Shown piece after piece: positions 9,629 through 46,081 of a stretch of DNA of 64,000 nucleotides. How positions within the stretch are numbered: the first letter of the stretch is position 1; every line of letters begins with the position of its first letter. The stretch lies in the sequence record MN895435.1, one strand, 5' to 3'. The position numbers and the translations under genes are program-made. The notes under the pieces were generated by a model. It saw only the letters and a program-made list of their open reading frames with translations. It ran no database searches and was not told the origin of the DNA. Origin of the DNA: Escherichia phage teqhal.

Positions 9629-9711
9629 GTTCACTATGGTGGTGTTTTGTTTGGTTAATTAGTATTCCAGTAATTTGTTTAACATTTACTTTTGTAATGA
9701 GGTTATTATGA
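9625..9711 (+). CDS. tiny hydrophobic peptide, 28 aa
   Basis: ATGA overlap with upstream stop; sequence MSSLWWCFVWLISIPVICLTFTFVMRLL. Confidence 0.25.
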   Translation: MSSLWWCFVWLISIPVICLTFTFVMRLL

Positions 9712-9806
9712 AAATTTTGAATTCTGTACTTATTGCTTGTGCGTGGTGGGTTGCACAGGTTTCAGCGGTAGTAGTTGGTATTCACATTTATTACGAATAT
9801 TTTTAA
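9708..9806 (+). CDS. tiny hydrophobic peptide, 32 aa
   Basis: ATGA overlap with upstream stop; single predicted transmembrane helix. Confidence 0.25.
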   Translation: MKILNSVLIACAWWVAQVSAVVVGIHIYYEYF

Positions 9807-9871
9807 AAAAGTTGTTTACAGGACTGTTCTTCCGTGGTACTATTACCCTATCAACTACGGAGGAACAGAAA

Positions 9872-9985
9872 ATGAAAAAGATTGTTAAAGCTATATGGAA
9901 TGTAGTTATAATACTAATAGTTTTGAGTATATTCCCAATCGTTTTAATGATTGATATGTTAAACGCTTATTTTGGATTTATGTGA
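9872..9985 (+). CDS. small membrane peptide, 37 aa
   Basis: GGAGGAACAGAAAATG RBS; one transmembrane helix (track ORF 9737 extends upstream without an RBS). Confidence 0.35.
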   Translation: MKKIVKAIWNVVIILIVLSIFPIVLMIDMLNAYFGFM

Positions 9986-9992
9986 GGAAAAT

Positions 9993-11286: not shown

Positions 11287-11419
11287 GAAAATCTTGGGCT
11301 ATTCATTAGCCCTTGCTACTTTATTAGTAGCACTATATTATGGAGTAATGTTCGGATTGATTCAAGTCGTGCTTTTCATTTCTGATGTTATTATGGCACT
11401 ACATTCACTAGTATGGTAA
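11279..11419 (+). CDS. small membrane peptide, 46 aa (52.1-like position)
   Basis: Overlaps ac stop; hydrophobic. Confidence 0.3.
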   Translation: MIKKILGYSLALATLLVALYYGVMFGLIQVVLFISDVIMALHSLVW

Positions 11420-11423
11420 ATTT

Positions 11424-12752: not shown

Positions 12753-12898
12753 GTCCATTCATTGGTATTACAAGCGCTGCATTAGTATCTGGCGGCATTT
12801 TACTAGCGGGGGTAGGTGTTGTTCCAGCCGTAGCAGGAGGTCTTCTTGCGTTCGGCATTCAACGTGTTATCATGACAGTTATCACAGTCATGCAGTAA
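12749..12898 (+). CDS. small membrane peptide, 49 aa
   Basis: ATGA overlap with the gene 52 stop; glycine/alanine-rich hydrophobic peptide. Confidence 0.35.
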   Translation: MSPFIGITSAALVSGGILLAGVGVVPAVAGGLLAFGIQRVIMTVITVMQ

Positions 12899-12903
12899 TT
12901 TTA

Positions 12904-12929
12904 GGGAGAGCCGAGGCTCTCCCTTTTTT
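12904..12929 (+). terminator. rho-independent terminator
   Basis: gggagagc-cgag-gctctccc hairpin followed by TTTTTT. Confidence 0.7.
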
Positions 12930-12955
12930 ATTTCAAAAATTTTTTCATAAAACGG

Positions 12956-12984
12956 TTTACAACCAAAGCATACTGTGGTACTAT
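12956..12984 (+). promoter_or_regulatory. early promoter upstream of motA
   Basis: -35 TTTACA, 17 bp spacer, TG-extended -10 TGGTACTAT; followed by conserved leader AACTATCAACTACTGATACAGAA. Confidence 0.55.
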
Positions 12985-13025
12985 ACAACTATCAACTACT
13001 GATACAGAATTACGGAGATTAGAAA

Positions 13026-14755: not shown

Positions 14756-14957
14756 TTCAAAATCTGATTATTTTAATTCTCTCAATGATAAAGATAAAAA
14801 TCTAATACGGCATTTTATTGTTGAGATGGGATATACGGATACACACGATTTAAGAGAACATATATTTGAATGTGGTGTAGCTAAAAAGTTTTCATTCACA
14901 TGCAAATGTTTGAGAGAGGTAATTCAGCACTATGAACAATTTAGTCGCAAAACATAA
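14739..14957 (+). CDS. hypothetical protein, 72 aa
   Basis: ORF overlapping previous gene by 17 nt; start uncertain. Confidence 0.35.
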   Translation: MAREINSKSDYFNSLNDKDKNLIRHFIVEMGYTDTHDLREHIFECGVAKKFSFTCKCLREVIQHYEQFSRKT

Positions 14958-15040
14958 TTTTAATAAAGCTTCTGTTCATAAGGATAAGAAGAAAGCGTTT
15001 AAAGAATCTAATCGCAAACAGAAACATAAGGGGAAGGTCT

Positions 15041-30045: not shown

Positions 30046-30067
30046 TAGATTATATTACTAATTAATT

Positions 30068-30092
30068 GGGGACCTCTAGGGTCCCTTTTTTT
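30068..30092 (+). terminator. rho-independent terminator after gene 32
   Basis: ggggacc-tcta-gggtccc hairpin followed by TTTTTTT. Confidence 0.7.
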
Positions 30093-30118
30093 ATTTCAAA
30101 AATTTTTTCACAAAATGG

Positions 30119-30147
30119 TTTACATCCTTGTCCTTCCATGGTACTAT
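30119..30147 (+). promoter_or_regulatory. early promoter
   Basis: -35 TTTACA, 17 bp spacer, TG-extended -10 TGGTACTAT, A/T-rich UP-like sequence. Confidence 0.55.
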
Positions 30148-30190
30148 ACAACTATCGGCAATACTGCTGATGATTAAAGAGGAAAATAAT

Positions 30191-45180: not shown

Positions 45181-45188
45181 TATAAATA
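45181..45188 (+). promoter_or_regulatory. late-promoter motif TATAAATA upstream of rIII
   Basis: TATAAATA immediately after the gene 31 stop, about 140 bp upstream of rIII. Confidence 0.4.
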
Positions 45189-45327
45189 ATAATATGAATT
45201 GGGTGTCGGAATAATAAGTTAACCGAACAATTCTATGTGGTAGTCTACAACTGAGAGATCTGTCGAAAGAAGATGAAATTCAGAAGAACGTGACTACCGA
45301 GTTTTAATCTCTAACGAGAATTTTTAA

Positions 45328-45576
45328 ATGATTAAACAATTACAACACGCTCTTGAACTGCAACGAAACGCATGGAATAATGGTCACGAAAACTATGGCG
45401 CATCTATTGATGTTGAAGCCGAAGCTCTTGAAATCCTGCGTTATTTCAAACATCTGAATCCTGCTCAAACTGCATTAGCTGCTGAGCTTCAGGAAAAAGA
45501 TGAACTTAAATATGCTAAGCCTTTGGCTTCTGCTGCACGAAAAGCAGTTCGTCACTTTGTGGTAACACTGAAGTAA
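45328..45576 (+). CDS. rIII: rIII lysis-inhibition accessory protein
   Basis: 82 aa, the T4 RIII length; T4 position between 31 and the 30.x cluster. Confidence 0.8.
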   Translation: MIKQLQHALELQRNAWNNGHENYGASIDVEAEALEILRYFKHLNPAQTALAAELQEKDELKYAKPLASAARKAVRHFVVTLK

Positions 45577-45821
45577 TTTATTGGAGATTCACTGCCTTAG
45601 TGTGAGCTAAAATCGAGGAGCCATCGAACTGTCTGATTAATGATTTGCGAATCATTATAGTTTTAAGACCCCGGCAGTTTTATGGTGTACCTCTTGAATG
45701 TGAATGATGACGGGTTTATGGTTATCCTGGTCGTTAAATATTCAAAAACCTATGTTCCCCTTGAGGGCTTGCGCAGGCAATGCCAATAAGTCCTGCATTT
45801 TCATTTAAAAGAGAATTTATA

Positions 45822-45998
45822 ATGGCAAAACAAGCTAAAGCAAAGAAAGCAGTTGAAAAGAAAGTTGGTGATTCTAAACGCGCTGGTTACAAGCGTGGGT
45901 CGAACTCTCGTATCAATCAAACTGTTGAGAAGATCATGCGCCGAGCACGTGCGGTTCTTCGAGATGATGCTTCTCGTTTTGGTAAGCAGAAAGCATAA
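45822..45998 (+). CDS. small lysine/arginine-rich protein, 58 aa
   Basis: Basic sequence (MAKQAKAKKAVEKKVGDSKRAGYKRGSNSR); terminator immediately downstream. Confidence 0.45.
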   Translation: MAKQAKAKKAVEKKVGDSKRAGYKRGSNSRINQTVEKIMRRARAVLRDDASRFGKQKA

Positions 45999-46002
45999 GT
46001 TG

Positions 46003-46027
46003 AGGACTCCTTCGGGAGTCCTTTTTT
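46003..46027 (+). terminator. rho-independent terminator
   Basis: aggactcc-ttcg-ggagtcct hairpin followed by TTTTT. Confidence 0.7.
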
Positions 46028-46052
46028 ATTTTCCAAAGATTGCACAAAGTTG

Positions 46053-46081
46053 TTTACAGTATGGTTCCTTTGTGATAGTAT
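46053..46081 (+). promoter_or_regulatory. early promoter
   Basis: -35 TTTACA, 17 bp spacer, TG-extended -10 TGATAGTAT; followed by AAGGAGAATAAAATG leader. Confidence 0.5.

What the first reader, a model, noticed from the sequence alone, without database searches (positions are those of the whole stretch)
45577..45821. Unusually long, relatively GC-rich structured intergenic region after rIII
About 245 bp without a convincing ORF in an otherwise tightly packed genome. It contains a perfect tetraloop hairpin (taatgatt-tgcg-aatcatta at 45638..45657) and ends in a promoter-like sequence before the small basic ORF. It could be a structured leader or a small RNA. The 147 bp spacer between gene 31 and rIII (45181..45327) also has long-range complementary segments (ggtagtc ... 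gactacc).
Basis: seen in the sequence. Interest (0 to 1): 0.4.

Follow-up and report, generated by a model that had tools for sequence, protein, structure and literature searches.

The report
Structured RNA spacer upstream of 30.9
The 245-base gap after the lysis-inhibition gene rIII of this T4-type phage is not junk but a chain of conserved RNA folds, kept more faithfully than the genes around it. It is also the cut-down version of a larger, undescribed structured RNA found in hundreds of related phages.

Summary
The window is a Tequatrovirus, about 99% identical to T4 here. Positions 45577-45821 are the unannotated rIII/30.9 intercistronic spacer. The 8-bp tetraloop hairpin sits exactly where reported. 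No ORF in the spacer is conserved.

Comparison with about 70 related loci shows a mosaic of plus-strand RNA modules, most supported by compensatory changes:
- hairpin A
- three-way junction B, which contains the reported hairpin
- a probable pseudoknot
- hairpins H2 and H3, and a weak hairpin over the 30.9 Shine-Dalgarno sequence

Against other genera the spacer is 87-99% identical, versus 72-84% for rIII and 30.9. The set of pseudoknot, H2, H3 and H4 precedes 30.9 in almost every genus examined. Modules A and B are optional.

At 45701|45702, T4 and this phage lack a ~150-nt four-way-junction domain. That domain has 23 of 39 pairs with compensatory changes, no Rfam match, and occurs in 408 phage records. 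It also occurs as terminator-ended copies elsewhere.

The "promoter-like" end and the GC-richness are not supported.

Best reading: a structured leader or operator for 30.9. A processed trans-acting RNA is the main rival. Function is untested.

The parts
45577..45821 (+). Whole rIII/30.9 intercistronic spacer (245 nt), non-coding.
   Evidence: ORFs inside are at most 35 aa and not conserved. No promoter or terminator inside.
45583..45608 (+). Module A: hairpin UCAC-UGCCUUAGU-GUGA. Pairs are 45589-45592 with 45602-45605.
   Evidence: helix 1: A-U changes to G-C and U-A to U-G in 4 of 8 sequences. The same module follows the four-way-junction domain in Grimontviridae phage PKM.Lu.22.1.
45613..45697 (+). 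Module B: three-way junction. Stems are 45613-18/45690-97, 45621-24/45682-85 and 45627-33/45673-79, plus the reported tetraloop hairpin 45638-45/45650-57.
   Evidence: CCAU/AUGG (window) against CCGU/ACGG (T4) is a compensatory pair between near-identical phages. Further double changes occur at 45629/45677, 45633/45673 and in the hairpin (L024). The module is 95-99% identical to other genera. PP01 and STML-198 lack its inner part.
45701..45702 (.). Cassette junction. U115-type relatives carry the ~150-nt four-way-junction domain D here. wV7-type relatives carry a 44-nt module. T4 and this window carry nothing.
   Evidence: Covariance model R1 finds no copy of D anywhere in the window.
45704..45753 (+). 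PK module. Stem 1 is 45709-14 with 45726-32, with one bulge. Loop GGUU 45720-23 can pair with AACC 45747-50. The linker CGUUAAAUAUUCAAA is conserved.
   Evidence: Stem 1 shows three pair types at two positions. For stem 2, position 3 varies among GC, AU and UA, and L027/L029 have GUGAG/CUCAC. Paired fraction is 0.865 against 0.65 in shuffles (0 of 2000). In the window stem 2 is only 4 bp, so the pseudoknot is probable, not proven.
45757..45767 (+). H2: CCCC-UUGA-GGG hairpin followed by the conserved CUUGCG.
   Evidence: variants CCCUUCGAGGG, CCUCUUAGAGGG and GCCUUCGAGGC. The module lies upstream of D in L025/L034. It accompanies the stand-alone D copies.
45773..45796 (+). H3: GCAGG...CCUGC hairpin with the conserved loop motif AAUAAGU. 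An alternative 8-bp helix, 45764-71 with 45787-94, competes with H2 and H3.
   Evidence: at the same position other genera have GGGAGC/GCUCCC, GAACUGG/CCAGUUC, GAGAGG/CCUCUC, GGCUCUA/UAGAGCU or GGCGA/UCGCC. The alternative helix is the RNAalifold consensus for the T4-like set but has no covariation.
45797..45816 (+). H4: AUUUUC...GAGAAU, a weak hairpin pairing the 30.9 Shine-Dalgarno (GAGA, 45811-14).
   Evidence: Other genera have UCUCC/GGA(A)GA or CCUC/GAGG. However, the predicted pairing probability of the SD (0.58) is ordinary for this genome, rank 57 of 96.
45822..45998 (+). Gene 30.9: 58 aa, very basic, function unknown. It is the gene the spacer precedes in every genus that has it.
   Evidence: It matches phrog_1427 (unknown function), with no Pfam or PDB match. 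AlphaFold2 predicts a two-helix hairpin, pLDDT 79.
46002..46023 (+). Intrinsic terminator ending the rIII-30.9 transcription unit.
   Evidence: It is annotated as a terminator in phage GiZh.
45239..45298 (+). Module M in the 31/rIII spacer: GGUAGUC-UACAAC-(GAAA-capped inner hairpin)-GAAGAACGU-GACUACC. It is homologous to the large H3 that precedes 30.9 in Klebsiella/Enterobacter-type phages.
   Evidence: 8 of 16 pairs have compensatory changes.
45181..45188 (+). T4 late-promoter motif TATAAATA directly after the gene 31 stop. From here, late transcripts would run through module M, rIII, the spacer and 30.9.
   Evidence: No terminator lies between it and 46002.

Best explanation
The spacer is a transcribed, non-coding, multi-module structured RNA. 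It lies within the message that starts upstream of rIII and ends at the terminator after 30.9.

Its 3' part (45704-45821) comprises the PK module, H2, H3 and H4. This is the conserved leader of gene 30.9. It most likely works as a post-transcriptional operator. In this model a factor recognises the pseudoknot and the conserved loop motifs and sets how much 30.9 is translated, or how long its message survives. That factor is possibly the small basic helical gp30.9 itself. The T4 gene 32 pseudoknot operator and ribosomal-protein leaders work in this way.

The 5' part (modules A and B, including the reported tetraloop hairpin) is an optional accessory block. In T4 and this phage, a third block, the four-way-junction domain D, has been lost at 45701|45702.

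Shown: RNA-level conservation, plus-strand polarity, the module map, and the constant association with 30.9. Inferred: transcription through the spacer, from the absence of signals inside it and from published T4 data. Also inferred: the regulatory mechanism and the identity of the binding factor.
For: - Structure is under selection: searches give compensatory changes with shuffle and slide controls. Window and T4 differ by a linked A-U to G-C pair.
- G-U pairs fit the plus strand.
- The spacer is 87-99% identical to Dhakavirus-type phages, while rIII is 83-84% and 30.9 is 72-74%.
- Where a 30.9 homologue follows rIII, the spacer was 120-416 nt in 41 of 42 loci listed. The one exception rests on a weak 30.9 match. 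The shortest spacers (120 nt, UGKSEcP1 and L028) keep just PK, H2, H3 and H4.
- There is no promoter or terminator inside the spacer, and a terminator lies right after 30.9.
- T4 data class both rIII and 30.9 RNA as early. The 30.9 protein got no class (NA) in that dataset (PMC9697503 supplement 4). rIII is reported to be served by early, middle and late promoters (PMC9409239).
- The PK module ends 69 nt before the AUG. The gene 32 pseudoknot lies 67 nt upstream of its start codon (PMC3014915).
Against: - Module order differs between genera. PK lies upstream of D in L031-L037 and downstream in T4-likes. H2 lies before or after PK. A fixed operator geometry would not predict this.
- SD sequestration by H4 is not stronger than at an average gene start in this genome.
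- The 3' half alone does not fold better than its shuffles (z = 0.14).
- Leader type and 30.9 protein type are uncoupled. Phages whose 30.9 is 81-91% identical to T4's carry the large H3. Phages at 65% identity carry the T4-type H3.
- D, A-like and H2-like modules also occur in terminator-ended RNAs with no downstream ORF. That favours an RNA acting on its own.
- No experiment bears on this spacer in the literature searched.
Confidence: 0.42

Rival explanations
1. The spacer is the precursor of a separate stable non-coding RNA or ribonucleoprotein. It would be cut out of the rIII-30.9 message and act in trans, for example as a decoy, sponge or scaffold. The modules would be autonomous units. 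T4 would carry a version without the core domain D.
For: - D occurs as stand-alone copies that end in terminators with no downstream ORF. One type is in the Slopekvirus uvsY/uvsW convergent spacer (L072, L218). The other is in Grimontviridae PKM.Lu.22.1, as D plus an A-like module plus a terminator.
- Modules are shuffled in order and exchanged like cassettes.
- The whole T4-type spacer was transferred at 99-100% identity into the tRNA cluster of the unrelated phage phi92. There it would be transcribed and processed along with stable RNAs.
- Nucleotide conservation exceeds that of the neighbouring genes.
Against: - The window has no promoter or terminator bracketing the spacer.
- PK, H2, H3 and H4 directly precede 30.9 in nearly every locus that has the gene.
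- No processing sites or stable RNA species from this region are known.
- T4 and most Tequatroviruses do well without D, A or B.
Confidence: 0.3
2. The folds are passive. A long untranslated gap in a polycistronic message would be kept tightly structured only to block Rho loading and endonuclease attack (RNase E/G, RegB at the two GGAG motifs). There would be no specific ligand or regulator.
For: RNA secondary structure protects GGAG sites from RegB (PMC3014915). The spacer holds GGAG at 45583-86 and 45617-20, the second inside a stem of module B. Natural variants with 120 to 416 nt all appear viable.
Against: Passive structure does not explain near-invariant loop and junction sequences across genera, such as CGUUAAAUAU, GGGCUUG, UAAG(U/A)C and UACAAC/GAAGAACGU. 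It also does not explain a complex four-way junction with invariant junction bases. Deleting the gap would serve the same end more simply.
Confidence: 0.12
3. The region acts at the DNA level, as a promoter, origin or recombination site. Alternatively it is a decaying scar of past insertions with no present function.
For: The site 45701|45702 is a hotspot where different cassettes sit in different phages. The spacer took part in an illegitimate or short-homology insertion into phi92. A TATAAT lies at 45816-21.
Against: There is no promoter-type match and no late-promoter motif inside. Compensatory changes with G-U pairs are strand-specific and act at the RNA level. Identity higher than in the flanking genes is the opposite of decay. 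The two conserved motifs that resemble a MotA box and a -10 box vary in spacing from 12 to about 200 nt between genera.
Confidence: 0.06
4. The spacer encodes one or more small proteins. Candidates are the 34-aa ORF at 45704-45808, or the 60-66-aa ORFs annotated over the insert in U115 and wV7.
For: ORFs of 34-35 aa exist. Several GenBank records annotate hypothetical proteins here.
Against: The ORF opening at 45704 is 10, 13, 16, 19, 22 or 34 aa long in close relatives, because of 1-nt indels. Those indels move a bulge from one side of PK stem 1 to the other, keeping the stem. There is no Shine-Dalgarno in the window. The U115 ORF lies over the covarying D domain and starts with TTG.
Confidence: 0.03

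Closest known systems
T4 gene 32 mRNA autoregulatory operator (leader pseudoknot)
   Same: Both are in T4-type phages. In both, an H-type pseudoknot sits some 65-70 nt upstream of the start codon of a nucleic-acid-binding-type protein, followed by A/U-rich sequence.
   Different: The sequences are unrelated (my own knowledge of the T2/T4 gene 32 pseudoknot; not tested with a tool). Here the stretch between pseudoknot and ribosome-binding site is itself folded into H2, H3 and H4, not unstructured. The binding protein is unknown. In the window pseudoknot stem 2 is only 4 bp.
Ribosomal-protein and other autogenous leaders in bacteria (e.g. the rpsO/S15 pseudoknot operator)
   Same: A small, very basic protein gene is preceded by a conserved structured leader in the same transcript.
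   Different: No evidence shows that gp30.9 binds RNA. It has no homology to ribosomal proteins. Leader type and protein type are uncoupled among phages.
PeSL mobile regulatory cassettes of T4-type phages (Arbiol et al. 2010; Comeau et al. 2014, PMC4122927)
   Same: Both are conserved intergenic motifs at which modules are swapped between T4-type genomes. A PeSL-like terminator plus TTTACA-N17-TAGTAT promoter lies just downstream of 30.9, at 46002-46081.
   Different: PeSLs are an early promoter joined to a terminator stem-loop. The spacer modules contain neither and have complex folds with covariation.
RBS-sequestering hairpins of T4 e, soc and I-TevI; fourU-type thermometers
   Same: A U-rich strand (AUUUUC) pairs with the Shine-Dalgarno sequence of 30.9. 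Equivalent pairings occur in other genera.
   Different: The predicted occlusion is average for this genome. No late promoter inside the hairpin could relieve it.
SAM-I (S-box) riboswitch, as a look-alike of domain D in relatives
   Same: Both have four-way-junction architecture. Short motif resemblances exist: UCUUAUC...ACCCGGAACC...GGUGUGCAAC...AGAUAAGAG against the S-box CUUAUC...ACCCGGCAACC...GGUGC...AGAUAAG. The S-box motifs are recalled from memory.
   Different: No Rfam model, SAM clan included, matches D even at E <= 10 in a 171-nt search. The helices that carry the motifs are arranged differently. No consistent expression platform follows P1.
T4 stable RNAs rnaC and rnaD (species 1 and 2)
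   Same: They are phage-encoded structured RNAs of unknown function, of similar size to D, in the same virus group.
   Different: The covariance model of D does not match the T4 rnaC/rnaD/tRNA region (best 6.7 bits).

Membership tests
Any Rfam 15 family | Covariance-model match at or near the gathering score. | tested here: not met
   There were no gathering-level matches in the window. Nothing matched in the spacer of U115 at E <= 10. Nothing matched on domain D alone at E <= 10.
tRNA / tmRNA | Cloverleaf or tRNA-like domain found by ARAGORN. | tested here: not met
   ARAGORN found 0 genes in the window and 0 in U115 locus L003. The 13 nt shared with the 5' end of phi92 tRNA-Gln is only a recombination junction.
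Gene 32-type autoregulatory pseudoknot operator | H-type pseudoknot in the leader upstream of the ribosome-binding site. | tested here: inconclusive
   Stem 1 covaries clearly. Stem 2 has a 4-bp core in the window, with covariation at one position plus a fully different 5-bp pairing in L027/L029.
Gene 32-type autoregulatory pseudoknot operator | Unstructured A+U-rich tract from the pseudoknot to the ribosome-binding site, for cooperative protein binding. | tested here: not met
   The interval holds the conserved hairpins H2, H3 and H4.
Gene 32-type autoregulatory pseudoknot operator | The encoded protein binds its own leader and represses translation. | not testable with these tools
   gp30.9 is a basic two-helix hairpin by AlphaFold2. 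No binding data exist.
Riboswitch (any class) | Conserved aptamer closed by P1, coupled to an expression platform (terminator/antiterminator or SD-sequestering alternative) that overlaps P1. | tested here: not met
   The window lacks the aptamer-like domain D. In relatives, P1 is followed by different modules in different genera, with no shared platform. An alternative helix competing with H2 and H3 exists in the window but shows no covariation.
PeSL regulatory cassette | Early promoter (TTTACW-N17-TAYWAT) joined to a terminator stem-loop. | tested here: not met
   Neither element lies inside 45577-45821. Both lie just after 30.9, at 46002-46081.
Sigma-70, MotA-dependent or late T4 promoter | -35/-10 hexamers at 16-18 nt spacing; or a MotA box plus -10; or TATAAATA. 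| tested here: not met
   The scan found none in the spacer. TATAAATA occurs only at 45181. The spacing between GGGCUUG and UAAGUC varies widely between genera.
Small protein-coding gene | Reading frame kept open and in frame across relatives. | tested here: not met
   ORF length varies from 10 to 34 aa because of frame-shifting 1-nt indels among close relatives.
RBS-sequestering translational hairpin | The Shine-Dalgarno sequence is paired markedly more than at ordinary gene starts. | tested here: inconclusive
   The pairing exists and recurs with different sequences. Its probability of 0.58 ranks 57 of 96 in the window.

The most novel reading that the evidence does not exclude
The T4 rIII/30.9 spacer is the reduced form of an undescribed modular non-coding RNA system of T4-like phages. 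Its core is a ~150-nt four-way-junction RNA with a GNRA hairpin, invariant junction bases and a possible internal pseudoknot. The core and its accessory modules (A, H2, PK, M) would behave as exchangeable cassettes that move between loci and even between phage families (Straboviridae, Grimontviridae, the phi92 group). They would act as an RNA in their own right: ligand-sensing, catalytic, or a decoy or scaffold working with the basic protein gp30.9. They would not be merely a leader.
Probability: 0.25. Interest if true: 0.8.

Novelty: new member of a known kind. Interest (0 to 1): 0.6.

Why it matters
T4 is the reference phage, yet this spacer carries no annotation. I found no paper on it in the searchable literature.

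The analysis shows it is under stronger nucleotide constraint than its neighbouring genes. It also belongs to a family of structured RNA modules shared by hundreds of Escherichia, Shigella, Yersinia, Klebsiella, Enterobacter, Citrobacter and Erwinia phages.

This gives a concrete, testable handle on gene 30.9, whose function is unknown. It also points to a well-supported new structured RNA, domain D, that T4 happens to lack. T4 and U115-type phages are therefore natural minus and plus strains for experiments.

It also corrects database errors. Several GenBank records annotate hypothetical proteins, or even a "glycogen branching enzyme", over this non-coding RNA.

Tried and rejected
- Rfam searches at gathering and permissive thresholds found nothing in the spacer or on domain D.
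- ARAGORN found no tRNA or tmRNA. A tRNA-like T-arm impression on the minus strand of the U115 insert was dropped.
- By eye, D resembled RNase P conserved regions, tmRNA PK1 and the SAM-I core. No model supports any of these.
- D is not homologous to T4 rnaC/rnaD.
- No second copy of D exists elsewhere in the window (filters off).
- Pattern scans of bacterial genomes, metagenomes and IMG/VR for D returned mostly chance hits. R1 confirmed D in only five of the loci those scans newly fetched: 0 of 80 genome loci, 1 of 80 metagenome loci and 4 of 44 viral loci. All confirmed loci lie on contigs of 144-179 kb. The 16- to 18-base patterns were too weak for collections of that size.
- The promoter reading of the 3' end was rejected.
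- Small-ORF readings were rejected.
- Strong SD sequestration as the mechanism was not supported.
- Literature searches for this spacer, T4 small RNAs or T4-like structured RNAs found nothing specific. The 2003 T4 genome review is not held.
- gp30.9 has no Pfam or PDB relatives.

Full report
**Identity of the region**

The window is a Tequatrovirus. A 1-kb segment around the finding is 99.1% identical to T4 and up to 99.7% identical to other isolates. The local gene order is cd, 31.2, 31.1, 31, rIII, 30.9, 30.8.

The rIII stop codon ends at 45576 and the 30.9 ATG is at 45822. The finding therefore covers exactly the 245-nt rIII/30.9 intercistronic spacer. This is T4 NC_000866.4 130541-130784, minus strand, where no feature is annotated.

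**Check of the observation**

- The hairpin taatgatt-tgcg-aatcatta is at 45638-45657. A perfect 8-bp hairpin appears in 1.9% of shuffles of the spacer.
- The plus strand of the spacer folds better than its shuffles (z = -2.24). The minus strand does not (z = -0.38).
- The spacer is one of seven stretches of at least 120 nt in 64 kb that no ORF of at least 50 aa covers.
- GC content is 38.8% against a window mean of 35.6%. That is unremarkable and lower than both flanking genes.
- The "promoter-like" end is a lone TATAAT abutting the start codon. The promoter scan finds nothing in the spacer. It does find the terminator after 30.9 at 46002-46023 and an early-type promoter at 46053-46081.
- The late-promoter motif TATAAATA is at 45181, right after gene 31, and not in the spacer.

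**Not coding**

ORFs inside the spacer are at most 35 aa. The ORF opening at 45704 is 10 to 34 aa long in close relatives because of 1-nt indels. Those indels move a bulge from one arm of a stem to the other, which keeps the stem intact.

**Comparative anatomy**

BLAST finds the spacer in 767 phage records. The rIII protein was used to fetch 40 IMG/VR loci. Where a 30.9 homologue follows rIII, the spacer was 120-416 nt in 41 of the 42 loci listed. The one exception (L040) rests on a weak 30.9 match.

Alignments show a mosaic of modules.

The following modules are in the window.

- Module A is a hairpin, 45589-92 with 45602-05.
- Module B is a three-way junction at 45613-45697. Its apical arm is the reported tetraloop hairpin.
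- The PK module has stem 1 at 45709-14 with 45726-32. Its loop GGUU (45720-23) can pair with AACC (45747-50). The linker CGUUAAAUAU is conserved.
- H2 is at 45757-67.
- H3 is 45773-77 with 45792-96.
- H4 is 45797-802 with 45811-16 and pairs the Shine-Dalgarno sequence.

**Covariation**

- A and B are 99% paired in 11 sequences, with six pairs changed on both sides. No shuffle reached the observed value on four of the tool's five measures. The fifth, further pair types, was no better than its shuffles. Slid controls gave 26-60% pairing.
- Window and T4 differ by a linked change, CCAU/AUGG against CCGU/ACGG.
- The reported hairpin keeps pairing through U-A to C-G and A-U to U-G changes in L024.
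- PK stem 1 shows A-U, U-A and G-C at one position, and C-G, G-C and U-A at another. The loop-tail pairing covaries at one position and is replaced by GUGAG/CUCAC in L027/L029. My manual count gives 86.5% paired against 65% in shuffles, 0 of 2000.
- At the H3 position, different genera have at least six different closing stems.
- Many G-U pairs indicate the plus strand.
- RNAalifold prefers an alternative 8-bp helix, 45764-71 with 45787-94, that competes with H2 and H3. It would explain why GGGCUUG and UAAG(U/A)C are both conserved. It shows no covariation, however.

**Constraint**

| Region | Identity to Dhakavirus-type and related phages |
|---|---|
| Module B | 95-99% |
| PK to H4 | 87-95% |
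| rIII CDS | 83-84% |
| Gene 31 CDS | 78-81% |
| 30.9 CDS | 72-74% |

**What T4 and this phage lack**

At 45701|45702, U115-type Tequatroviruses, Dhakavirus and more distant genera carry a ~150-nt domain, D. D is found in 408 phage records. It is 91-96% identical between Escherichia and Klebsiella/Enterobacter phages and about 80% identical in Erwinia phage Cronus. In the records listed it either carries no annotation or lies under 'hypothetical protein' calls.

RNAalifold gives 39 pairs for D, 23 of them with compensatory changes. Pairing is 97.3% against 87.1% in shuffles, with 0 of 500 on all measures. Slid controls give 27-42%.

The fold is a four-way junction with no unpaired linkers:
- P1 is formed by the flanks and covaries completely.
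- P2 leads to the P3 hairpin.
- P4 is a hairpin.
- P5 encloses a GNRA-capped P6 and P7.

No Rfam family matches D. A covariance model of D finds nothing in the window with filters off. It also finds nothing in the T4 rnaC/rnaD/tRNA region.

wV7-type phages carry a different 44-nt module at the same junction. PP01 and STML-198 lack the inside of B, and UGKSEcP1 lacks A and B altogether. The minimal set that always precedes 30.9 is therefore PK, H2, H3 and H4.

**Modules move**

- PK lies upstream of D in L031-L037 and downstream in T4-likes and Cronus. H2 lies right after rIII in L025/L034.
- The large H3 of Klebsiella-type phages is homologous to the hairpin in the window's 31/rIII spacer, 45239-45298. 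Eight of its 16 pairs show compensatory changes.
- D also occurs in the uvsY/uvsW convergent spacer of Slopekviruses. There it is followed by an H2-like hairpin and a bidirectional terminator, with no ORF.
- D also occurs in a Grimontviridae phage, followed by an A-like module and a terminator, upstream of a sigma-factor gene.
- The complete T4-type spacer sits at 99-100% identity in the tRNA cluster of phi92-group phages. It is circularly permuted with the last 28 codons of rIII and flanked by a 13-bp direct repeat that is also the 5' edge of tRNA-Gln. The related phage "inny" shows the empty site.

**Mechanism**

Transcription through the spacer is inferred, not shown here. No signals lie inside it and a terminator follows 30.9. 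Published T4 data class rIII and 30.9 RNA as early, and the 30.9 protein was not classified. rIII is reported to be served by early, middle and late promoters.

The constant pairing of PK, H2, H3 and H4 with 30.9 favours a cis leader or operator. gp30.9 is a basic two-helix hairpin with no known relatives. The gene 32 operator is the nearest precedent.

Several results count against this reading:
- Module order is not fixed.
- SD occlusion is ordinary, 0.58, rank 57 of 96.
- The 3' half alone is not unusually stable.
- Stand-alone copies of related modules exist.

I put 0.9 on "conserved functional plus-strand RNA structure". I put about 0.4 on the leader/operator reading, about 0.3 on a processed trans-acting RNA, and the remainder on passive insulation, DNA-level roles or coding.

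**Novelty**

I found no description of this spacer or of domain D in Rfam or in the searchable literature. The kind of element, a phage structured leader or non-coding RNA, is known. These families appear to be new.

Noticed in passing
L003:1604-1759 (U115); also L008, L019, L021, L025-L037, L069, L070: A ~150-nt four-way-junction RNA domain (D) sits in the rIII/30.9 spacer of many T4-like phages but is absent from T4 and this window. It has 23 of 39 pairs with compensatory changes and no Rfam match. It occurs in 408 phage records, where it either carries no annotation or lies under 'hypothetical protein' calls.
   Followed up: yes
L072:693-852 and L218:9219-9560 (Slopekvirus); L071:701-920 (Grimontviridae PKM.Lu.22.1): Diverged copies of domain D lie outside the rIII/30.9 context and end in intrinsic terminators. 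One type is in the uvsY/uvsW convergent spacer with no downstream ORF. The other is upstream of a sigma-factor gene in an unrelated phage family.
   Followed up: partly
L048:1293-1628 (phi92-group phage PD06); L049; empty site at L050:~380-400: The whole T4-type spacer plus the last 28 codons of rIII is inserted at 99-100% identity into the tRNA cluster of phi92-group phages. It is circularly permuted relative to T4 and flanked by a 13-bp direct repeat, TTTATTGGAGATT, that is the 5' edge of tRNA-Gln. This looks like integration of a circularised T4 fragment or a tandem-duplication product.
   Followed up: partly
window 45239-45298: The hairpin in the 31/rIII spacer has conserved internal loops UACAAC and GAAGAACGU and a GAAA-capped tip. 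It is homologous to the large hairpin that precedes 30.9 in Klebsiella/Enterobacter-type phages. It lies downstream of the late-promoter motif at 45181, in the likely rIII 5' UTR.
   Followed up: yes
window 46002-46081: The terminator at 46002-46023 is followed by an early-type promoter, TTTACA-N17-TAGTAT, at 46053-46081. This matches the PeSL promoter-terminator cassette described for T4-type phages.
   Followed up: partly
L005:~826-870 (wV7); L009, L015-L017, L020, L022, L024: A 44-nt module (CUAUCAUGCGUCAGAAAAGUGUUAUCUGUGUAAGUC...) occupies the same junction as D in wV7-type phages. It resembles the H3 variant of L026. wV7 annotates a 66-aa protein over it.
   Followed up: no
window 9629-9992, 12753-13025, 14756-15040, 11287-11423, 30046-30169: These are other stretches of 124-364 nt that no ATG-ORF of at least 50 aa covers on either strand. 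They may hold very small genes or further non-coding elements.
   Followed up: no
GenBank records under hits H25, H29, H37, H41, H131 and others: Several deposited genomes label the spacer or 30.9 as '1,4-alpha-glucan (glycogen) branching enzyme, GH-13-type', or place hypothetical proteins on it. These are evident annotation artefacts.
   Followed up: no
T4 30.9 (window 45822-45998): In the published T4 time-course, 30.9 RNA is classed as early but the protein has no class (NA). Its neighbours rIII and 30.8 have protein classes. This could reflect translational repression, or simply a 58-aa Lys/Arg-rich protein that mass spectrometry misses.
   Followed up: no
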